A program made the position numbers and the translations under genes. This document shows, piece by piece, positions 13,907 through 53,247 of a stretch of DNA of 64,000 bases. This DNA is from Nanobdellota archaeon. GTDB lineage: Archaea; Nanobdellota; Nanobdellia; Woesearchaeales; UBA583. Location of the stretch: contig JBMCRE010000002.1 of assembly GCA_048625195.1 (NCBI GenBank), positions 1,747 through 65,746 on the forward strand, in the 5' to 3' direction. How positions within the stretch are numbered: position 1 is the first letter of the stretch; the number at the start of each line of letters is the position of its first letter. The notes below the pieces were generated by a model, which was given only the letters and a program-made list of their open reading frames with translations, searched no databases and was not told the origin of the DNA.

Positions 13907-14128
13907 TGTTTTTTGTTTTTATTTTTTGTTTTTATTTAATTAATTTATTTTGAATATATTTTTAATGTTTTTTTATGTTTTTTATGTTTTGAAATATTAA
14001 CATTGTTTTAAAAATTTGAAAATAATTTAAGAGCAAAATATTTAAAGAAAAATGAATTATTTATTTTTACTTGAATTAATTAATATATTAGTATTGTTTT
14101 ATTTGAAGTTGATTATTAATAAAATATT

Positions 14129-14211
14129 GGCAAGATCGCATAATCCGGTATTGCGCTACCCTGGAAAGGTAGTCCCTGATGGGATTCTGGGTTCAAATCC
14201 CAGTCTTGCCG
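14129..14211 (+). tRNA. tRNA-Ser (anticodon GGA), class II with long variable arm
   Basis: Acceptor stem GGCAAGA/TCTTGCC with discriminator G. Anticodon stem CTACC/GGTAG around loop CTGGAAA. Variable arm TCCC-TGAT-GGGA. T arm CTGGG-TTCAAAT-CCCAG. No encoded CCA and no intron. Confidence 0.9.
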
Positions 14212-14217
14212 TTTTTT
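14212..14217 (+). terminator. oligo-T tract after tRNA-Ser
   Basis: A T6 run follows the discriminator base directly. Oligo-T is the usual archaeal termination signal. Confidence 0.45.
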
Positions 14218-27432: not shown

Positions 27433-27843
27433 TTAATTATCTATAATTGAGAATGAACCTCTTAAGACATTATTCTCTAAAGCTACTAATATATCTACAA
27501 TTCCATCCTCTTGAGTATTGCAATCTGAAATATTAATCTTATTTATGCCTGGTATTAATATCTCATTATTAGTTATGTTGCAATTAATATTTTTGATTTC
27601 TAATCTTAATATTGTTTGATTGTATTTTAAATTATTGAGTAAGTATATCTCATCTTTAGTAATACCTTCCACTTTTAAACCTTGAGAGTTTAAGTTTTCT
27701 TCTCTTGAATTTTCAATTAAATTAGAAGTGTAATATATATAACTATTTTTAATTAAAATAAATCCTATAACTGTAACTCCTAATAGTAATGTTATTGCAA
27801 CAATTGAATGCATTGCTTTTTTTTCTTTAAAAATACTATTCAT
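27433..27843 (-). CDS. archaeal type IV pilin-like protein (class III signal peptide)
   Basis: N-terminus KEKKAMHSIVAITLLLGVTVIGFILI is a short basic leader followed by a hydrophobic helix, as in archaeal pilins. Confidence 0.5.
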   Translation of the reverse strand: MNSIFKEKKAMHSIVAITLLLGVTVIGFILIKNSYIYYTSNLIENSREENLNSQGLKVEGITKDEIYLLNNLKYNQTILRLEIKNINCNITNNEILIPGINKINISDCNTQEDGIVDILVALENNVLRGSFSIIDN

Positions 27844-28442: not shown

Positions 28443-29030
28443 TTATGGATATAAATAAGTAATAACTGATGTCATTGCTGAAGGTGTTGTTAATTGAACT
28501 GGTTTTACAGCACCATTTTTAGTTAATAATCTTAGAGTTGCTGTTTCTCCTTCTTCAATATCATCAACAGAATTATAAGTAAAAGTAATTTCTGCTAAAT
28601 CTCCAACATTTAAGTATCCGTCTAAATGATTGGAACCATTAATTTTATATGTTATACCATATTCTGTAGTATCAAATCCATCATCTCCACTATATGTAGT
28701 AGATTGTGTTCCTGTCATAGTATCGAATCTTAATAATAAGTCTTCTAATTTAACAGGAGCACTTCCTGATCCTAGTCTTACAACTAGCGTTACATTATCA
28801 TCACCAACAGTAATACTTCCATCACTTGTTGATTTTGCAAGTACTTGGATTACTTCAATATCTGTTGTAATTTTCTCTTGTGATTGTCTTCCTACATCTA
28901 ATGATTTAGATTGTAAAGAAGATGCCGTTTGTATTAATACGCCTGCAGCTACTGCAGCTACTAATATCATTGCTATAAATATAATTAGCGTCCCAATTCC
29001 TTGAGCTGCTTTTTTTTCTTTCATTACCAT
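28443..29030 (-). CDS. arlB: archaellin (archaeal flagellin FlaB/ArlB)
   Basis: N-terminus KKAAQGIGTLIIFIAMILVAAVAAGVLIQTASSLQSKSLDVGRQSQEKI is the highly conserved archaellin signal and N-terminal helix. Confidence 0.85.
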   Translation of the reverse strand: MVMKEKKAAQGIGTLIIFIAMILVAAVAAGVLIQTASSLQSKSLDVGRQSQEKITTDIEVIQVLAKSTSDGSITVGDDNVTLVVRLGSGSAPVKLEDLLLRFDTMTGTQSTTYSGDDGFDTTEYGITYKINGSNHLDGYLNVGDLAEITFTYNSVDDIEEGETATLRLLTKNGAVKPVQLTTPSAMTSVITYLYP

Positions 29031-34024: not shown

Positions 34025-35446
34025 ATGAAATTTATTGATGTTTGTCAGATTTTAGAAAAATTAGAAAAGAATAGTCAAAGATTAAAAAAGATATTAATTT
34101 TAAGAGACTTCTTAATTACAAACAAAAGAGAGAGTAAAATTATTTTTGATATGATTGCTGGAAATTATCAAAGGAAAATTGATAAAAAAACTCTTGGAAT
34201 TTCTATCAAAACTATTTTTAGTTCTGTAACTTTAATTAGTCGAGTTTCACAATTAGAGATTGAAAAGAGATTTAATAAAACTGGTGATATCGGAGAAGTC
34301 ATTGCACAAATATTAGAGAAAAATAAACAAAACTATTTATTTACAAAAGATTTAATGATAGAGGATATTGAAAAAAGTTTTCAAAGTATATCTAAAAATA
34401 TAGGAAGTAATTCAAATAAGAAAAAAAAAGAGATAATAAGTAATTTATTTTTACTTGCAAAATCTAAATTAGAATATAAGTTTATTACTAGATTATTAAT
34501 AGATGATTTAAGAGTTGGTGTTTCTGAAGGTTCATTAAAAGAATCTGTTGTAAATTCTTATTTTCCAAATATTGTAGGAATTCATTTAATGTGTGAGAAT
34601 TGTAATTATATTAATTTGAATTTAAAAAAATGTTTTAATTGTAATAAAGATATAGATTTGAAAAGACAAGAAGAAATTATTTCAAAAAAATATAATATTG
34701 TTGAATTAGAAACTCCTAACTATCAGACTAGTTTGCTTGATTATGATATTAAATATTTTGTTAATCAATTAGAATATGCAATTAGAAGAGATAGAGAAAA
34801 GTATTTTATAAAAACACAAAATCCTAGAGAATTATATAATAAATTTTTAGAACTATTTGAAAAAAAATATAATTTAATTAATTCTTTTGAAAAAATTTTA
34901 ACTCAATTAGATGAAAATTTAAATAATGTTTTAAATTTTGAAATAAAATTAGGATTACCTATAAAATCAATGCTTGGTAGTAGATCTGATTCTATAGAAG
35001 ATAGTTTTAAAACAACATTAAAACCATCTATTGTTGATTTTAAATATGATGGATTAAGAACACAAATACATAATAAAAAAGGAGAAGTAAATATTTTTAC
35101 AAGAAATTTAGAAGATATTACTAAACAATTTCCTGAAATTATTGATTTTATAAAGAATAATTTTAGTGATATCGAATTTGTAATTGATGCTGAATGTGTT
35201 GGATATGATTTTAAAAATAATACTTTTTTACCTTTTCAGACACTATCAAAAAGAATTTTAACTAAAAATTTAAGTGATGTGAGTCATATAAATGTTGTAG
35301 TTAAATGTTTTGATTTATTATATTTAAATGGTAAAACACTAATAGATGAAAATTATAAAAATAGAAGAGAAATTTTAGAAGAATTATTTTTAAATAGAAC
35401 AATTATTGAGAATAATAATTTTAATGTTGAAGAGCTTGAGAGATGA
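34025..35446 (+). CDS. lig: ATP-dependent DNA ligase, N-terminal fragment (DNA-binding domain plus partial adenylation domain; truncated or split)
   Basis: Motif I VDFKYDGLRTQIH and motif III FVIDAECVGYD, then FDLLYLNGKTLIDENYKNRREIL. The ORF ends before motifs IV-VI and the OB fold. The stop codon lies inside the 67-bp repeat. A CxxC-x9-CxxC insertion (CENCNYINLNLKKCFNC) sits between the DBD and the adenylation domain. Confidence 0.8.
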   Translation: MKFIDVCQILEKLEKNSQRLKKILILRDFLITNKRESKIIFDMIAGNYQRKIDKKTLGISIKTIFSSVTLISRVSQLEIEKRFNKTGDIGEVIAQILEKNKQNYLFTKDLMIEDIEKSFQSISKNIGSNSNKKKKEIISNLFLLAKSKLEYKFITRLLIDDLRVGVSEGSLKESVVNSYFPNIVGIHLMCENCNYINLNLKKCFNCNKDIDLKRQEEIISKKYNIVELETPNYQTSLLDYDIKYFVNQLEYAIRRDREKYFIKTQNPRELYNKFLELFEKKYNLINSFEKILTQLDENLNNVLNFEIKLGLPIKSMLGSRSDSIEDSFKTTLKPSIVDFKYDGLRTQIHNKKGEVNIFTRNLEDITKQFPEIIDFIKNNFSDIEFVIDAECVGYDFKNNTFLPFQTLSKRILTKNLSDVSHINVVVKCFDLLYLNGKTLIDENYKNRREILEELFLNRTIIENNNFNVEELER

Positions 35447-35505
35447 AGGGATTAAGAGCTCAAGAGATTAAGGGCTCAAGAGATTAAGGGCTCAAGGGAT
35501 TAAGA
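35439..35505 (+). repeat. 67-bp direct repeat, left copy
   Basis: Identical to 37491-37557 except for one position (35481 a versus 37533 g). Aligned by hand. Confidence 0.9.
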
Positions 35506-35535
35506 GCTCTGGCTCTTTAGCACTTTGGCTCTCAA
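35448..35535 (+). repeat. GC-rich tandem array with 16-nt (8+8) period, left
   Basis: Units in register: gggattaagagctcaa, gagattaagggctcaa, gagattaagggctcaa, gggattaagagctctg, gctctttagcactttg, then a partial gctctcaa. Confidence 0.8.
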
Positions 35536-35586
35536 TTATTTTTGATTTTTTAGAATTTATTTTGTATAAATAATAAAAAATTAGTT

Positions 35587-37428
35587 TTATGGACAATTAC
35601 CCCAATCGGGTTGTAATGCTGTTTGTCCTTCAAAACCTGAATCAGTATCAAAACTAGAAGGCTTTGAACTAATATGAGGAACACACCAGAAACTTATATC
35701 CTGATTAAAAGAAGTAGCATAATAAAACATTCCCTCCATATCTGTTACACTACTTGTATCTGTAAAGTTTAAAGACTGATTAAAAGACTCAGCAAAAAAA
35801 AACATATAACTCATATCTGTTACGCTACTTGTATTAAAATTTAAAGGTTGATTAAAAGAACTAGTATAAGGATCCTCATTACTAAACATATAACTCATAT
35901 CTGTTACACTACTTGTATCAAAATTTAAAGATTGATTAAAAGAAGTAGCATAATAAAACATCTCACTCATATCTGTTACACTACTTGTATCAAAATTTAA
36001 AGGTTGATTAAAAGAATAAGCTTGTTGAAACATCGTACTCATATCTGTTACACTACTTGTATCAAAATTTAAAGATTGATTAAAAGAAGTAGCAATATAA
36101 AACATCTCACTCATATCTGTTACACTACTTGTATCAAAATTATCCAAAGGTTGATTAAAAGAATAAGCAGAGTAAAACATTCCACTCATATCTGTTACAC
36201 TACTTGTGTCAAAATTTAAAGGTTGATTAAAAGAATTAGCATCTCCAAATATATAACTCATATTTGTCACACTACTTGTATCAAAATTTAAAGATTGATT
36301 AAAAGAAGTAGCCAAAAAGAACATATAACTCATATCTGTTACACTACTTGTATCAAAATTATCCAAAGGTTGATTAAAAGAATTAGCACCTGAAAACATA
36401 GTCCTCATATTTGTTACACTACTTGTATCCCAATGTAAAATATTAGGGTTTATATTCGAATTGTAGAATACTCCACCATACCAACTATCATCTAAATTCA
36501 TTGTTGTTACAAGCGAAGTACAAGCAGTTTCATAAAAGTTAACATCATCTGATTCAATCTTATCAGATAAATCTTGGTTAGAAACAGCTGTATAGGTTAC
36601 ACCATCTAAAGTTCCAGTATCACCAAAACTTGCTGAACTACAATTAACAACTCCATTAGATAGTAATTCGAAATTTCCATCTGTTTCAATCACAGTAGGT
36701 GTTGAAACTTCTTCTTCTTTTGTCTTAACACTCCATATAGTTGAGTAATCTCCTAAAGTTAGAGTTGCTTGCTTTGTAGTATTATAATTACTTGAAGAAT
36801 TTAATTTTATTGTTAAATTGTCTCCTGAATTCATAGTAGCACTTGTTTTCCAACTACTACTATTAACATTTAATTGCGGATTTCCATCTCCTGTTATTGA
36901 AACACTTAATGGACCTTCGTAATTTGTTGGTGTTAAAGTGTTTGATTCAATTAATGTATCTAATTCTACATCTATTTCATTATTAAAATTAAAATTATCT
37001 GGCATAGTGTCTTGGCCTTCTTCACTACTACTTCCATCATTATAAATAGATATAGTTTTTGTAAATAAGCCTTTATTTGTAACAACAATAACTTCTGCTG
37101 TTGATTGATGTGTTTCTACGCACCCAGATATATTAATTGTTTGCATTCCTTTACCATAACTTTTATCAATAAGACAAGAAACATCGTTTAATTTTATTTC
37201 TGTAATAGTTAAATTATTATAACCATTTTTAAAATATAAATTATTGTCTAAAACTGTATCGATTCTAGTATTCATAACATCTATTGAACTGTCTTGCTCA
37301 ACTTTAGAAAATAAACCACTAGAATATGTTTGAAACCAACCCTGAAATCCTACTACTGCTACAACTAATAATAAAGCAGTTGCAACTACTGGAGATATAG
37401 TTTTTTTGTTTATTAAATATTTTAACAT
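35587..37428 (-). CDS. pilin-signal surface protein with BspA-like/DUF285 repeats
   Basis: Class III signal-like N-terminus (KKTISPVVATALLLVVAVVGF). Ten tandem ~23-25-aa repeats FDTSSVTDMSxMFxxAxSFNQxLN follow. The C-terminal ...FNQDISFWCV...PDWGNCP is typical of DUF285-type proteins. Confidence 0.8.
   Translation of the reverse strand: MLKYLINKKTISPVVATALLLVVAVVGFQGWFQTYSSGLFSKVEQDSSIDVMNTRIDTVLDNNLYFKNGYNNLTITEIKLNDVSCLIDKSYGKGMQTINISGCVETHQSTAEVIVVTNKGLFTKTISIYNDGSSSEEGQDTMPDNFNFNNEIDVELDTLIESNTLTPTNYEGPLSVSITGDGNPQLNVNSSSWKTSATMNSGDNLTIKLNSSSNYNTTKQATLTLGDYSTIWSVKTKEEEVSTPTVIETDGNFELLSNGVVNCSSASFGDTGTLDGVTYTAVSNQDLSDKIESDDVNFYETACTSLVTTMNLDDSWYGGVFYNSNINPNILHWDTSSVTNMRTMFSGANSFNQPLDNFDTSSVTDMSYMFFLATSFNQSLNFDTSSVTNMSYIFGDANSFNQPLNFDTSSVTDMSGMFYSAYSFNQPLDNFDTSSVTDMSEMFYIATSFNQSLNFDTSSVTDMSTMFQQAYSFNQPLNFDTSSVTDMSEMFYYATSFNQSLNFDTSSVTDMSYMFSNEDPYTSSFNQPLNFNTSSVTDMSYMFFFAESFNQSLNFTDTSSVTDMEGMFYYATSFNQDISFWCVPHISSKPSSFDTDSGFEGQTALQPDWGNCP
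35686..36435 (-). repeat. intragenic tandem repeats (~69-75 nt units, ten copies) encoding the DUF285-type repeats
   Basis: Near-identical DNA blocks are visible, for example atatctgttacactacttgtatcaaaatttaaag recurring. They correspond to aa 332-581 of the protein. Confidence 0.85.
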
Positions 37429-37490
37429 AATAATTATATGATTAAAACTCTTTTTTGTTTATGTTTTAACTTGAAAGTGGTTAGTACTGT

Positions 37491-37557
37491 AGAGATGAAG
37501 GGATTAAGAGCTCAAGAGATTAAGGGCTCAAGGGATTAAGGGCTCAAGGGATTAAGA
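37491..37557 (+). repeat. 67-bp direct repeat, right copy
   Basis: See the left copy at 35439-35505. Confidence 0.9.
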
Positions 37558-37633
37558 ACCAAAGAAGATTAGGCACTTCAGCACTTAGGCACTTCAGCAC
37601 TTAGGCACTTCAGCACTTAGGCACTTCAGCTCT
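37500..37633 (+). repeat. GC-rich tandem array with 16-nt (8+8) period, right
   Basis: Four gRgattaagRgctcaa-type units are followed, without loss of register, by gaagattaggcacttc and three perfect agcacttaggcacttc units. The array ends 4 nt from the rps27ae stop codon. Confidence 0.85.
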
Positions 37634-37636
37634 AAA

Positions 37637-37828
37637 TTAATTTTTATTAGTTATATATTCAACATAACTGCATTTTCCACAATGGTAACGATCAGGTTTT
37701 GAGTATAAACCTAAAAATATTCCTTTTCCACATTGAGGACATTCTTTTCTTGTTTTTTTACCATCTTTATAAAATTGATATTTTTTTGATGGTGTAGATG
37801 ATTTTGCTTTTTCTTTACTTTTTCCCAT
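37637..37828 (-). CDS. rps27ae: 30S ribosomal protein S27ae (eS31)
   Basis: Zinc ribbon CPQCGKG...HCGKCSYVEY. Starts 2 nt after the rpl11 stop. Confidence 0.85.
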   Translation of the reverse strand: MGKSKEKAKSSTPSKKYQFYKDGKKTRKECPQCGKGIFLGLYSKPDRYHCGKCSYVEYITNKN

Positions 37829-37830
37829 TT

Positions 37831-38313
37831 TTATTCTTGTAATTGTGAGTCATATTTTCCAGATTTTACATCTGCAATAAATACTCTTGGCAGTTTTCCA
37901 TCAACTTTTATACCTAGAGAATAACATGTTCCTGCTATTTCTCTTACTGCTGTTTTTAAATCGTTTGCAAGTAAAGCATCAAACTTCATTCTTGCAATTT
38001 TTTTAATTTGTTCTACAGTTAAGTCTCCAACATAAGTTTGATTTGGAGTTGCACTTCCTTTTTTTATATTTAATTCAGATTTAATTAATTGTGATGCAGG
38101 AGGTGTTCCTATTTTAATTTCGTAGTCTTTAGTTTTTGTATCCACTGTTACAACTACAGGAACTTTCATTCCTTTAAAATCTGCTGTTTTCTTATTTATG
38201 TCTGCTACAACTTGTCCTATATTTACTTTTAGAGGACCCAATGCAGGACCTAAAGGTGGTGCTGCTGTTGCTTTTCCACCTTCAATTAAAATTTCTATTT
38301 TTTCTTTTGCCAT
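37831..38313 (-). CDS. rpl11: 50S ribosomal protein L11 (uL11)
   Basis: GGKATAAPPLGPALGP and the overall uL11 pattern. Confidence 0.95.
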   Translation of the reverse strand: MAKEKIEILIEGGKATAAPPLGPALGPLKVNIGQVVADINKKTADFKGMKVPVVVTVDTKTKDYEIKIGTPPASQLIKSELNIKKGSATPNQTYVGDLTVEQIKKIARMKFDALLANDLKTAVREIAGTCYSLGIKVDGKLPRVFIADVKSGKYDSQLQE

Positions 38314-51549: not shown

Positions 51550-53247
51550 TTAAAAATAATCTGTTAGATTCATGTTTTTGTCTTTGTTTTCTTCTTCAAA
51601 CTGTTTGTAAGTGTCAACTAGCTTATCAACTTCATCATCACTTACTTCCCTGATTTTAATTTCTTTTGGTTTACCTAAAGATTGAGGTTTTTCAATTCTT
51701 TGACTTGTTAAAACTGTGTTTTCATTATTTGTATTGTAATTGATATGTGCAATTTGTTCTTTAATTTTTATTGCTATTTTTTCTCCTACAATTCTTGACA
51801 ATTGAGAAAATTCTACTCTTTTTAAATCAAACATTTTTTTTAAACCTGCAGAATATAGTTTTCTTGCTCTTACCCTACCTATAAATTTTAGATTTACTAA
51901 AGGAATTAATTCCGATTTTATCCCAAATTTAAATCTAATTCTTAATTTACTTATAAGGTTCTTAAAATATACATGTTTTTTTATATAAGATAACTCCTCT
52001 AAACAATATAATAACCAATCTATAACTTCTACCTTATAGTTGAGTTCTCCTGGTGTTATATTATATTTGTCGCAAAGGAAGTCTTCTGGTATTTCTTCAA
52101 TCCAATCCATTAATATATCAGTTGTTTTTAAAGAATGCATAAAATTTTCATAATCTATTTCAAATGGGTCATATTTAATTACCATTGAATCTGCAATATC
52201 TTCTATTTTAGAGATATATTTTTCTTCTTCATTTTTATATACTCGAAATAGTGGACGCATTTCTATTGTATTAGTAATAAAGTTAATTAATGAATAGTAT
52301 ATCTGTTTATGATTAGGATCATTTTCAAATATATTTACAAATTTTTCAATATTTTCTAAAAAGTAATAAGCAGTATCAGGATTTAAATATAACTCTGATA
52401 CTTTTTTACCTAATTGAGTTGCAATATAATAATCATCATCTTGGACAACAAAACTATATTCTTTCAATAATTCTATAATTCTGAATATATTATAATTTAA
52501 TGATTCAATATCTTTATATTGATGAGCATAGAAAGTTGATGCAAAAAATTTTTTTATTTCTTCTTTAGAATTAATCATATCCATTGCAATTAGAGATAAT
52601 AAGTACATTTTTAATGTGGGTTCTACTGCTAGTTTTGATAATACTTCTTCATATTTTCCAAAAACATATTTTGAAACAATTTCATCTATTTGTGTTTTAC
52701 TGTTTAGACATAAAACTGATTTTCCTACTTTCTCACAACCAGGCCTACCAGCTCTTCCAGCCATTTGATGATATTCTAATATTGGGATATCTCTCATCCC
52801 TCTTTGAGAATATCTTTTATAATCTTTAATGATAACTTGATATGCTGGTAAATTTAATCCTGCTGCAAGTGTTGGGGTAGAGGATATTGCCTTGATGATT
52901 CCTTTTTTAAAAGCATCTTCAATTAAATATCTTTGTTTTGTAACTAATCCGCTATGGTGAAATGCCACACCTTTTTGAACACATCTAGATAGTTTTTTGC
53001 ATTGTGTTGTTGGATTTGATAACGAATTTAATATTTTGTTTGATAAAGTTTTAAGTTCTTCTTGATTTATACTATTTTTTAAAAATCTTGCTATTTTTTC
53101 TGCTGTAGCCTCAGATGATCTTTTTGAATTATTGAAAATTAGAACTTGTTTGTTTTTATCAAGTGTATCTAATACTAAATTTATTACATTATCTTGTGTT
53201 TTAGGCTCTATTTTTTGAGTATCTATGATGCAGAGTTTAGAAGTCAT
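51550..53247 (-). CDS. hel308: Hel308/Ski2-like helicase, C-terminal portion (RecA2, winged helix, ratchet, HhH domains); RecA1 domain absent
   Basis: QVLIFNNSKRSSE (motif IV region), TPTLAAGLNLPA (V), QMAGRAGRPG (VI), and a C-terminal HhH (FIGRVRARKLYSAGL). No Walker A or DEAH motifs. The upstream neighbour is an unrelated membrane protein. Confidence 0.8.
   Translation of the reverse strand: MTSKLCIIDTQKIEPKTQDNVINLVLDTLDKNKQVLIFNNSKRSSEATAEKIARFLKNSINQEELKTLSNKILNSLSNPTTQCKKLSRCVQKGVAFHHSGLVTKQRYLIEDAFKKGIIKAISSTPTLAAGLNLPAYQVIIKDYKRYSQRGMRDIPILEYHQMAGRAGRPGCEKVGKSVLCLNSKTQIDEIVSKYVFGKYEEVLSKLAVEPTLKMYLLSLIAMDMINSKEEIKKFFASTFYAHQYKDIESLNYNIFRIIELLKEYSFVVQDDDYYIATQLGKKVSELYLNPDTAYYFLENIEKFVNIFENDPNHKQIYYSLINFITNTIEMRPLFRVYKNEEEKYISKIEDIADSMVIKYDPFEIDYENFMHSLKTTDILMDWIEEIPEDFLCDKYNITPGELNYKVEVIDWLLYCLEELSYIKKHVYFKNLISKLRIRFKFGIKSELIPLVNLKFIGRVRARKLYSAGLKKMFDLKRVEFSQLSRIVGEKIAIKIKEQIAHINYNTNNENTVLTSQRIEKPQSLGKPKEIKIREVSDDEVDKLVDTYKQFEEENKDKNMNLTDYF

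What the first reader, a model, noticed from the sequence alone, without database searches (positions are those of the whole stretch)
35439..37557. One-gene cassette bounded by 67-bp direct repeats, carrying a pilin-signal BspA-like adhesin and cutting off the DNA ligase ORF
Seen: 35439-35505 and 37491-37557 are direct repeats, 66 of 67 positions identical. They bracket a single minus-strand gene (35587-37428). The left copy supplies the stop codon of the ligase ORF, whose last residues (..EELER*) run into the repeat. The ligase therefore ends inside its adenylation domain. The right copy abuts the 3' end of rps27ae. The enclosed protein joins an archaeal class III (type IV pilin) signal to ten DUF285/BspA-type repeats. 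It lacks the TTTATAAA promoter seen at most other genes. Inference: this may be a recombination-prone or mobile surface-adhesin cassette; in an episymbiotic DPANN cell such a protein would be a host-attachment candidate. Alternatively, the assembly may have joined contigs falsely at a repeat.
Basis: partly seen in the sequence, partly recalled or inferred. Interest (0 to 1): 0.7.

Follow-up and report, generated by a model that had tools for sequence, protein, structure and literature searches.

The report
Adhesin gene nested in duplicated tandem arrays
In a tiny-genome (DPANN) archaeon, a pilus-type surface adhesin gene lies between two near-identical copies of a short tandem-repeat array, probably a strain-variable add-on behind a ribosomal-protein operon; the neighbouring "cut-off" DNA ligase is naturally short and was not cut by it.

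Summary
The repeats are real: 35439-35505 and 37491-37557 match at 66 of 67 positions. Each is about four units of a 16-nt tandem array (GATTAAGRGCTCAAGR) found nowhere else in the window. They bracket one minus-strand gene for a protein with a pilin-like N-terminus and ten PARCEL/DUF285 repeats.

The claim that the ligase is cut off does not hold. At least 82 Woesearchaeota/Nanoarchaeota homologues (43-64% identity) end at the same point, all without an OB domain, and relatives that lack any repeat do too. The array appears to have grown out of the ligase's last 16 nt.

The ligase to rps27ae-L11 adjacency also occurs in the closest relative found. A 92%-identical strain carries a much longer, differently composed array beside rps27ae. 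Independent k=31 assemblies break exactly where the two-copy structure predicts. A second sample reads through that point, which is what an allele with a single repeat context would give.

The adhesin gene has no TATA box. No oligo-T terminator separates it from rps27ae, and a T6 run follows its own stop codon, so read-through expression is likely. I found no integrase, attC core sites, tRNA or viral link.

Most likely this is an accessory gene gained by duplication of the spacer and lost by repeat recombination. Mobility is unproven and interest is modest.

The parts
34025..35446 (+). Short ligase-like gene (473 aa): DNA-binding domain, Zn-ribbon insert, and nucleotidyltransferase motifs I-IIIa. 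It natively lacks motifs IV-VI and the OB fold.
   Evidence: Pfam PF04675 plus PF01068 positions 2-147 of 204. 82 homologous clusters have the same C-terminal end point. The identical protein occurs in two Logan assemblies.
35430..35509 (.). Array A, left copy. Unit 0 is the last 16 nt of the ligase ORF, stop codon included. The 67-nt direct repeat is 35439-35505.
   Evidence: TRF period 16, 5.0 copies. 66 of 67 identical to the right copy. The ligase's last 16 nt match the array unit AAGAGCTCAAGAGATT at 13 of 16 positions (read).
35510..35547 (.). Degenerate B-like unit plus T-rich tail. It resembles the last B unit and the rps27ae stop region of the right side.
   Evidence: 27 of 36 identical without gaps; 1 of 500 shuffles scores as well. 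It pairs with the start of array A in the predicted fold (z -2.0).
35575..35580 (-). T6 run 6 nt after the adhesin stop codon; candidate archaeal terminator.
   Evidence: and the sequence.
35587..37428 (-). Adhesin gene (613 aa): pilin-like N-terminus, a roughly 100-aa lineage-specific insert, and ten PARCEL/DUF285 repeats (72-nt DNA period, 35884-36429).
   Evidence: The NCBI record names it a BspA family LRR surface protein.
37429..37490 (-). Unique 62-nt stretch upstream of the adhesin gene, with no TTTAWA (TATA-like) box.
37491..37557 (.). Array A, right copy. It begins with AGAGATGA, a copy of the ligase's last codon and stop codon.
37558..37568 (.). 11-nt linker between arrays A and B; it forms the loop of the predicted hairpin.
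37569..37632 (.). Array B: TTAGGCACTTCAGCAC x4, an inverted and diverged (about 69% identical) relative of array A. It pairs with A unit for unit.
   Evidence: TRF 100% matches. ssDNA fold -25.5 kcal/mol, z -5.05. RNA fold -42.8 kcal/mol, z -3.4.
37637..38313 (-). The rps27ae (37637-37828) and L11 (37831-38313) operon, on the same strand as the adhesin gene and upstream of it. No T5+ run occurs within 300 nt downstream of rps27ae.

Best explanation
The locus is an accessory-gene slot in the spacer between a naturally short ligase-like gene and the L11-rps27ae operon of a Nanoarchaeota/Woesearchaeota-type genome.

The spacer itself. It is a hypervariable tandem array. Array A appears to have been seeded by tandem duplication of the ligase's last 16 nt. 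Array B is an inverted, diverged relative of A, so A and B together can form a long imperfect hairpin.

The insertion. In this strain a promoterless gene for a type-IV-pilin-signal PARCEL (DUF285/BspA-like) surface protein sits inside the spacer, and spacer sequence lies on both sides of it. Hence the 66/67 direct repeats. The right copy even carries a copy of the ligase's last codon and stop codon.

How it arose (inferred). The simplest origin is a single-crossover, Campbell-type integration of DNA that carried a spacer-like segment. A duplication through template switching at the hairpin is the alternative.

What follows (inferred). (1) The gene is transcribed by read-through from the ribosomal-protein operon and stops at its own T6 run. 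The array hairpin may modulate how much read-through occurs. (2) The flanking repeats allow loss of the gene by homologous recombination or replication slippage, giving presence/absence variation between strains. (3) The protein is processed by a prepilin peptidase and displayed on a pilus or at the cell surface as an adhesin.

The ligase plays no part. Its end predates the repeats.
For: Shown directly.
- Repeat identity and array structure.
- The arrays are unique to this locus in the window.
- The ligase's short form is ancestral.
- The ligase to rps27ae-L11 adjacency also occurs in the closest relative found, L005, which has a different 109-aa ORF in the slot and no arrays.
- A 92%-identical strain (L004) has B x2 followed by more than 290 nt of A-like array beside rps27ae, so the spacer is hypervariable.
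- In the Logan k=31 assembly of SRR21542054, the ligase-side and rps27ae-side contigs (L001, L003) are 100% identical to the window. They stop at 35468 and 37601, exactly the branch nodes computed for the two-copy structure.
- The contig from SRR29060565 (L002) runs through node 35439-35468 and carries the right-copy variant G at 35481. An allele with a single repeat context, such as an empty site, would give this.
- The adhesin gene has no TATA-like box. No T5+ run lies between rps27ae and the adhesin gene, and a T6 run lies 6 nt after the adhesin stop.
- A and B pair in register.
- The sequence after the left copy resembles the B unit plus the rps27ae end.
- Relatives share the pilin-like N-terminus plus PARCEL architecture, and one of them sits next to a Peptidase_A24 prepilin peptidase.
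- The adhesin's GC (0.286) and GC3 (0.135) are within the window's range.
Against: - No read-level data, so neither inner junction (35506-35586 and 37429-37490) is confirmed independently.
- L002 is a short, probably low-coverage contig. Logan contigs are simplified graphs, so reading through a node is only suggestive.
- L004 ends inside the array, so whether that strain lacks the adhesin gene is unknown.
- The A copies are 98.5% identical but the B-like flank is only about 75% identical. That does not fit a single recent duplication of the whole spacer unless the A copies are kept alike by gene conversion.
- No donor, circular form or second copy of the cassette was found.
- Read-through is inferred from missing motifs only. 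The hairpin could instead terminate or process the transcript.
- The A/B hairpin is not significant in L004 (z -1.25).
Confidence: 0.55

Rival explanations
1. Assembly artefact. The adhesin segment belongs elsewhere, or to another strain, and was threaded between two occurrences of a repeat.
For: The repeats are low-complexity and longer than small k-mers. Logan contigs break in them. The adhesin protein appears only in the NCBI MAG record.
Against: The outer flanks are also neighbours in the relative L005. The k=31 contigs of SRR21542054 stop exactly where two left contexts of the repeat merge, so both contexts exist in those reads. 67 nt is shorter than the largest k-mers that current metagenome assemblers usually use (own knowledge). 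Any misplacement would still need the adhesin segment to be flanked by array A at both ends, because both inner junctions run from unique sequence into the array.
Confidence: 0.12
2. Contingency (phase-variation) locus. The arrays are simple-sequence repeats whose unit number changes by slippage and so tunes or switches adhesin expression. On this view the two copies need not reflect insertion or mobility.
For: The arrays lie 63-204 nt upstream of a surface-protein gene. Unit number and composition differ between samples and strains. L002 ends where heterogeneity in unit number would create a branch (inference).
Against: The arrays lie outside the ORF and upstream of any plausible promoter position. 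The same array type sits beside rps27ae in L004, where no adhesin gene is visible within 350 nt. This model does not explain why an ordered 67-nt block, including the ligase stop codon, is present on both sides of the gene.
Confidence: 0.2
3. Integron-like gene cassette. The A/B hairpin-forming repeats act as attC-type recombination sites, forming a cluster of attC sites lacking an integrase (CALIN), and are serviced by a recombinase encoded elsewhere.
For: A single promoterless ORF is bounded by roughly 100-140-nt direct repeats that can fold as imperfect hairpins. Integrons and CALINs have been reported in archaeal MAGs, Nanoarchaeota included (PMC9668308).
Against: No tyrosine recombinase or any recombinase domain was found in ORFs of 190 aa or more across the 64 kb. 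No RYYYAAC...GTTRRRY core pair occurs in either repeat on either strand. The stems are built from tandem 16-mers. There is only one cassette. The array is absent from IMG/VR.
Confidence: 0.04

Closest known systems
PARCEL (DUF285 / BspA-like) repeat surface proteins, described in Mollicutes and other bacteria (Roske et al. 2010, PMC2996958)
   Same: The same repeat family: PF03382 at 311.7 bits and TIGR02167 with 10 repeat stretches. The intragenic 72-nt tandem repeats are highly similar at the DNA level. Like other members it is a strain-specific accessory surface protein. That paper links PARCEL ORFs with horizontal transfer and intragenomic shuffling.
   Different: This one is archaeal; the 2010 survey found none in Archaea. 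Its export signal is a type-IV-pilin-like N-terminus rather than a lipoprotein signal. No ICE, IS element or plasmid context was found. It is flanked by short-unit arrays rather than by mobile-element ends.
Integron gene cassettes and CALINs, including those reported in Archaea (Ghaly et al. 2022, PMC9668308)
   Same: A promoterless single-gene unit, bounded by similar direct repeats that can form hairpins, and expressed from an upstream external promoter.
   Different: No IntI and no R''/R' core sites. The repeats are tandem 16-mers. There is a single cassette. The putative external promoter belongs to a ribosomal-protein operon.
Simple-sequence contingency loci of host-adapted bacteria such as Neisseria, Haemophilus, Campylobacter and Mycoplasma (own knowledge)
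   Same: Hypervariable short tandem repeats next to a surface-adhesin gene in a small-genome, probably host-dependent organism.
   Different: The units are 8/16 nt and lie outside both the ORF and the core promoter. The arrays occur on both sides of the gene, and one arm is paired with an inverted array. No expression switch has been shown.
Archaeal type IV pilins and adhesion pili such as UpsA, and type IV pili in episymbiotic Saccharibacteria (PMC12206443)
   Same: An N-terminal hydrophobic helix followed by a beta-sandwich head. A weak UpsA match covers residues 8-118. A homologue lies beside a prepilin peptidase gene. An attachment role is plausible.
   Different: A 480-aa C-terminal extension carries the PARCEL repeats. 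Scores are below the curated cut-offs. The residue at position -1 is T rather than G or A. No pilus assembly genes lie next to it in the window.
Canonical archaeal/eukaryotic ATP-dependent DNA ligase (Lig1 type)
   Same: The neighbouring gene has the DNA-binding domain and nucleotidyltransferase motifs I (KYDG), III and IIIa.
   Different: Motifs IV-VI and the OB domain are absent across the whole family of 82 or more clusters. A CxxC...CxxC insert is present. The TIGR00574 score (194.6) is below its cut-off (217.8).

Membership tests
Integron gene cassette / attC site (CALIN) | Integron integrase (IntI, a tyrosine recombinase) adjacent to or near the array | tested here: not met
   No Phage_integrase or other recombinase hit in any ORF of 190 aa or more across the 64-kb window. 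Nine ORFs had no Pfam hit at all.
Integron gene cassette / attC site (CALIN) | Inverse core sites R'' (RYYYAAC) and R' (GTTRRRY) bounding each site | tested here: not met
   A regex scan of both repeats with their flanks, on both strands, found no R''/R' pair 40-160 nt apart.
Integron gene cassette / attC site (CALIN) | Imperfect hairpin-forming site of about 57-141 nt downstream of a promoterless ORF | tested here: inconclusive
   Right A+B: ssDNA fold z -5.05, RNA fold z -3.4. Left: z -2.0. The stems are tandem 16-mers with periodic mismatches, not an attC-like layout. The attC covariance model is not available here.
Type IV pilin-like protein (archaeal class III signal peptide) | Short charged N-terminus followed by a hydrophobic helix, then a beta-rich head | tested here: met
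   MLKYLINKKTISPVVATALLLVVAVVGF. The AF2 model has a helix at 13-39 and strands at 55-129, although pLDDT over residues 1-52 is below 50.
Type IV pilin-like protein (archaeal class III signal peptide) | Match to curated pilin or archaellin N-terminal models above their cut-offs | tested here: inconclusive
   NF046073 UpsA: E 7.5e-6, 26.1 bits against a cut-off of 130. TIGR02537: 13 bits against a cut-off of 20. A weak paralogue, ORF 27433-27843, matches at E 1.6e-6.
Type IV pilin-like protein (archaeal class III signal peptide) | Processing by a prepilin peptidase (PibD/FlaK type) or genomic linkage to one | tested here: inconclusive
   The homologue P0179 lies immediately downstream of a Peptidase_A24 gene (L239). 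No such gene was seen in this window. Cleavage cannot be tested here.
PARCEL / DUF285 / BspA-like repeat surface protein | Tandem repeats of about 24-25 aa matching PF03382 / TIGR02167 above their cut-offs | tested here: met
   PF03382: 311.7 bits against a cut-off of 25. TIGR02167: 104.2 bits against a cut-off of 30, with 10 stretches.
Canonical ATP-dependent DNA ligase | Complete nucleotidyltransferase domain (motifs I-V) plus OB domain with motif VI (PF04679) | tested here: not met
   PF01068 matched only positions 2-147 of 204, and PF04679 is absent. This holds for the whole 82-cluster family. tblastn found no C-terminal half in the window.
Simple-sequence contingency locus | Short-unit tandem repeat associated with a surface-protein gene, with unit number varying between strains | tested here: met
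   TRF arrays. Differences between the window, L002 and L004.
Simple-sequence contingency locus | A change in repeat length switches or tunes expression | not testable with these tools
   Needs transcript or protein data across array-length variants.
Integrative element (attL/attR, often in a tRNA gene) or transposon with target-site duplication | An integrase or transposase inside the element, with a tRNA or short target-site duplication at the ends | tested here: not met
   The only gene between the repeats is the adhesin gene. The only tRNA in the window is at 14128-14212. No inverted terminal repeats were reported inside the repeats.
Diversity-generating retroelement (template and variable repeats) | Reverse transcriptase nearby, a variable repeat inside the 3' end of the target ORF, and adenine-specific differences | tested here: not met
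   No reverse transcriptase domain in the window ORFs scanned. Both repeats are non-coding for the adhesin gene. There is a single A/G difference.

The most novel reading that the evidence does not exclude
The paired inverted tandem arrays (A/B) are folded-DNA recombination sites, working like integron attC sites. An unlinked or unknown recombinase uses them to move promoterless single-gene surface-protein cassettes into a slot directly behind a ribosomal-protein operon. That would give DPANN archaea a swappable and strongly expressed adhesin position.
Probability: 0.05. Interest if true: 0.8.

Novelty: new member of a known kind. Interest (0 to 1): 0.35.

Why it matters
If the model holds, it shows how an ultra-small, probably host-dependent archaeon gains and loses a pilus-type adhesin. 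The gene is parked in a repeat-rich spacer behind a strongly transcribed ribosomal operon, and the flanking repeats allow easy loss. Such strain-level variation in attachment proteins could bear on host range in DPANN archaea.

The check also removes a false lead: no essential ligase has been disrupted. In its place it points to a conserved DPANN ligase-like family without an OB domain, whose function or missing partner is unknown. That family may be the more interesting question.

Tried and rejected
1. Scan of GTDB species genomes with the ligase protein: no relative confirmed.
2. A generic 8-nt periodic pattern, (AAGRGNNN)x5, searched in the genome and viral collections. The one DPANN hit (L036) is an unrelated (TACCTCTT)x5 array.
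3. The specific 23-mer of array A in IMG/VR: 0 hits.
4. The adhesin's N-terminal half in IMG/VR: none. In JGI metagenomes: only two partial hits at 42-52% identity, covering the pilin-like domain.
5. Exact look-up of the adhesin protein: not on record. The homology search found no close full-length orthologue; the best relatives are 58-64% identical over 38-60% of the query.
6. Relatives' loci (L238, L239) have no flanking short-unit arrays, so the arrays are not a general feature of this adhesin family.
7. Rfam scan of 35300-37800: no match.
8. Foldseek of the AF2 model against PDB: nothing at E <= 0.001, only weak Ig-like hits.
9. attC core-site scan: negative. DGR, tRNA-integration and transposon readings rejected.
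10. TGA read-through or recoding of the ligase stop rejected: a TAA follows two codons later in frame, and the family ends at this point anyway.
11. Search for the ligase's C-terminal half in the window: none.
12. Literature searches for a DPANN ligase lacking the OB domain, or split, and for DUF285 in DPANN: nothing relevant.


Full report
**1. Observation**

The two 67-nt stretches, 35439-35505 and 37491-37557, match at 66 of 67 positions. The single difference is A at 35481 against G at 37533. They are not arbitrary sequence. Each is about four units of a 16-nt tandem repeat, GATTAAGRGCTCAAGR, with an 8-nt sub-period (TRF 35430-35509 and 37494-37557). Perfect units occur only at these two places in the 64-kb window; at up to 2 mismatches there are 8 matches against 0.14 expected.

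The right copy is followed by an 11-nt linker and a second perfect array, TTAGGCACTTCAGCAC x4 (37569-37632). This array ends 4 nt before the rps27ae stop codon. The left copy is followed by a degenerate B-like unit and a T-rich tail. Together these resemble the last B unit plus the rps27ae stop region: 27 of 36 positions, with 1 of 500 shuffles scoring as well.

One minus-strand ORF, 35587-37428, lies between the repeats.

**2. The ligase is not cut off by the cassette**

The 473-aa ORF has the DNA-binding domain and positions 2-147 of the 204-position adenylation-domain model, and it has no OB domain. That form is the rule for a large family. The homology search returned about 90 clusters of 420-498 aa at 43-64% identity, all with PF04675 plus PF01068 and none with PF04679. 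They come from Woesearchaeota and Nanoarchaeota MAGs and metagenomes. Canonical 560-660-aa ligases appear only at about 30% identity.

I measured the length from the FD of motif IIIa to the C-terminus. 82 short-family members end 34-54 residues later (median 47; the window protein ends at 45). 29 canonical ligases end 217-227 residues later. The terminal peptide is conserved in type: HFDLEELKKI, HFNTDKLKD, and NFNVEELER in the window.

Relatives with this same C-terminus have no tandem arrays downstream (L005-L007). tblastn found no C-terminal ligase half in the window. The ORF end therefore predates the repeat, and removing the cassette would not lengthen the protein.

The dependence in fact runs the other way. 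The ligase's last 16 nt, AAGAGCTTGAGAGATG (stop codon included), match the array unit AAGAGCTCAAGAGATT at 13 of 16 positions and lie in phase with it. TRF starts the array at 35430. Array A looks as if it was seeded by tandem duplication of the gene's 3' end.

**3. Context and comparison**

The window is ordinary chromosomal DNA of an AT-rich (23.9% GC) DPANN archaeon. The NCBI record calls it Nanoarchaeota archaeon, on a contig of 84,763 nt. Nearby genes include CDC48, RFC, Dus, L11, rps27ae, a ParA/MinD-like ATPase, NAC and CTP synthase. No integrase, transposase or reverse transcriptase domain was found in any ORF of 190 aa or more. The only tRNA is 21 kb away.

In the closest relative found (L005; ligase 64% identical) the order is ligase, then a 109-aa unknown ORF on the minus strand, then rps27ae and L11. 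There are no arrays. So the two outer flanks are also neighbours there, and the content of the slot between them differs.

A strain about 92% identical at the DNA level (L004, JGI 3300077746) has, downstream of an identical rps27ae protein, two B units, a different linker and more than 290 nt of heterogeneous A-like 8-mers (CYCTNNNN). This array runs to the end of the contig with no sign of the adhesin's upstream sequence. The spacer is therefore hypervariable between close relatives. The last 17 nt of L004 equal the ligase/array junction, but similar 8-mers also occur inside the array. I cannot say whether that strain lacks the adhesin gene.

**4. Is the assembly right?**

Independent k=31 assemblies (Logan) give indirect evidence. 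The ligase-side and rps27ae-side contigs from SRR21542054 (L001, L003) are 100% identical to the window. They stop at 35468 and 37601.

A de Bruijn simulation of the window shows what to expect. The first branching node reached from the ligase side is the 30-mer 35439-35468, which has two predecessors. The first reached from the rps27ae side is 37601-37630. The contigs stop at exactly these nodes. So both left-hand contexts of the repeat...CTTG|AGAGATG and ...ACTGT|AGAGATG, are present in those reads.

In contrast, the contig from SRR29060565 (L002) differs from the window at only one position in 1,610 nt. It runs through that node, carries G at 35481 (the right-copy variant), and ends at 35488. 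This does not fit the two-copy structure. It fits an allele in which the repeat has a single left context, such as an empty site or a deletion product. The point where it ends is where heterogeneity in unit number would create a branch.

This evidence is suggestive only. L002 is short and probably low-coverage, and Logan contigs are simplified graphs. I put a false join at about 0.12.

**5. The enclosed gene**

- *Architecture.* The 613-aa protein has a charged N-terminus and a hydrophobic helix (KKTISPVVATALLLVVAVVGF). Residues 8-118 match the UpsA pilin model weakly (E 7.5e-6, below its cut-off). ORF 27433-27843 is a weak paralogue, next to an archaellin-like gene.
- *Predicted structure.* The AF2 model shows a helix at 13-39 and a beta sandwich at 55-129. 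A low-confidence insert at 132-241 is absent from relatives. Residues 245-613, which hold the PARCEL repeats, are modelled confidently. No PDB fold matched significantly.
- *Repeat family.* PF03382 scores 311.7 bits and TIGR02167 finds 10 repeats.
- *Relatives.* Four relatives (P0124, P0131, P0137, P0179; 58-64% identity over 38-60% of the query) share the pilin-like N-terminus, a conserved NF.LLSNG...YTAVSNQ.LSD..ES...FYE.ACTSLV module, the PARCEL repeats and a W..CP C-terminus. P0179 lies directly downstream of a Peptidase_A24 prepilin peptidase gene, which supports the pilin-type export route. None of these relatives has flanking short-unit arrays.
- *Origin.* No close orthologue, viral copy or plasmid-like context was found. 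GC (0.286) and GC3 (0.135) are within the window's range, so nothing in the composition points to recent foreign origin.

**6. Expression (inferred)**

About 43 of 58 window genes have a TTTAWA box within 60 nt upstream, and for most of them it lies 26-34 nt upstream of the start codon, which fits leaderless transcripts. The genes that lack it are mostly internal to operons. The adhesin gene lacks it.

The adhesin gene lies on the same strand as L11-rps27ae, 208 nt downstream. There is no T5+ run within 300 nt after rps27ae, whereas the median distance to the first T5+ run across window genes is 52 nt. A T6 run starts 6 nt after the adhesin stop codon. Read-through from the ribosomal-protein operon is the simplest reading.

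Arrays A and B are inverted relatives. By inspection of the sequence, the reverse complement of a B unit matches an A unit at 11 of 16 positions. They pair unit for unit (ssDNA -25.5 kcal/mol, z -5.05; RNA -42.8 kcal/mol, z -3.4). This hairpin could modulate read-through. The property is not significant in L004 (z -1.25), so it may not be selected for.

**7. Mechanism of origin and loss (inferred)**

The right copy begins with AGAGATGA, which is the ligase's last codon and stop codon. The left copy ends in a B-like unit and a tail like the rps27ae end. The likely ancestral state is therefore ligase stop, A, linker, B, rps27ae stop. The present state is that spacer duplicated around the inserted gene.

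A single-crossover integration of DNA carrying a spacer-like segment, or template switching at the hairpin, would produce this layout. Recombination or slippage between the 67-nt repeats would delete the gene and restore a single spacer. L002 has the sequence expected of such an allele as far as it extends.

One weakness remains. The A copies are 98.5% identical, but the B-like flank is only about 75% identical. Either gene conversion keeps the A copies alike or the history is more complex.

**8. Comparison with known systems**

- *PARCEL/DUF285 family.* The protein is a clear member. This family is known for patchy, mobile-element-associated distribution, and the 2010 survey did not find it in Archaea (PMC2996958).
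- *Integron cassette.* The locus resembles one: a promoterless single ORF between hairpin-forming direct repeats, with an external promoter. Integrons and CALINs have been reported in Nanoarchaeota MAGs (PMC9668308). But the tests I could run failed: no IntI and no R''/R' core sites.
- *Contingency loci.* It shares hypervariable short repeats next to an adhesin gene with bacterial contingency loci. No expression switch has been shown.
- *Other readings.* DGR, tRNA-integrating element and transposon are excluded.

**9. Verdict**

The adhesin gene flanked by array copies is most likely real and an accessory, losable insertion. It is not shown to be mobile, and it did not truncate the ligase. Interest is 0.35.

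The more intriguing by-product is the conserved ligase-like family without an OB domain. I found no description of it in the searchable literature.

Noticed in passing
window 34025-35446 (+); relatives P0002-P0090, loci L005-L007: A conserved DPANN family of ligase-like proteins, about 450-495 aa (82 or more clusters). They have the DNA-binding domain, a CxxC...CxxC Zn-ribbon-like insert and motifs I-IIIa, but lack motifs IV-VI and the OB fold. All end 34-54 aa after motif IIIa. This could be one half of a split ligase or a protein with a new function. No C-terminal half is in the window, and I found no paper describing it.
   Followed up: partly
window 51550-53247 (-): A Hel308-like helicase (Helicase_C at aa 83-170, archaeal helicase domain 4, HHH) with no DEAD/ResIII N-terminal domain detected. 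It may be a second split or shortened gene in this genome.
   Followed up: no
window 27433-27843 (-) and 28443-29030 (-): A 136-aa ORF with no Pfam hit is a weak paralogue of the adhesin's pilin-like N-terminal domain (24% identity, E 1.6e-6). It lies near an Arch_flagellin-family gene, so this may be a small pilin/archaellin locus 8 kb from the adhesin gene.
   Followed up: partly
window-wide, upstream of ORF starts: A TTTATAWA or TTTAWA box sits 26-34 nt upstream of the start codon of most genes, which implies mostly leaderless transcripts. Genes that lack it are mostly internal to operons.
   Followed up: partly
L004 1825-2172 (JGI 3300077746, Ga0643558_0088546): A strain about 92% identical carries more than 290 nt of heterogeneous 8-mers, with CYCT constant and four variable bases, downstream of rps27ae. 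A gene caller read a 49-aa charged-repeat ORF through it, which is probably spurious.
   Followed up: partly
L239 598-3252 (Logan SRR17161165): A 416-aa homologue of the adhesin (P0179) lies 45 nt downstream of a 452-aa Peptidase_A24 (prepilin peptidase) gene on the same strand. This is the best contextual support for pilin-type processing of this protein family.
   Followed up: partly
L036 1354-1390 (Candidatus Pacearchaeota RIFCSPHIGHO2_01_FULL_29_23): Five perfect copies of the octamer TACCTCTT lie directly upstream of a gene start; on the coding strand this reads as repeated AAGAGGTA, which resembles a Shine-Dalgarno sequence. It is unrelated to the window's arrays but is another octamer array at a gene boundary in a DPANN genome.
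   Followed up: no
window 35884-36429 (-): The PARCEL repeats are 84-87% identical at the DNA level over 7.5 copies of 72 nt, with higher-order periods of 147 and 219 nt. The adhesin ORF is therefore itself prone to in-frame expansion and contraction, and it breaks short-k assemblies.
   Followed up: no
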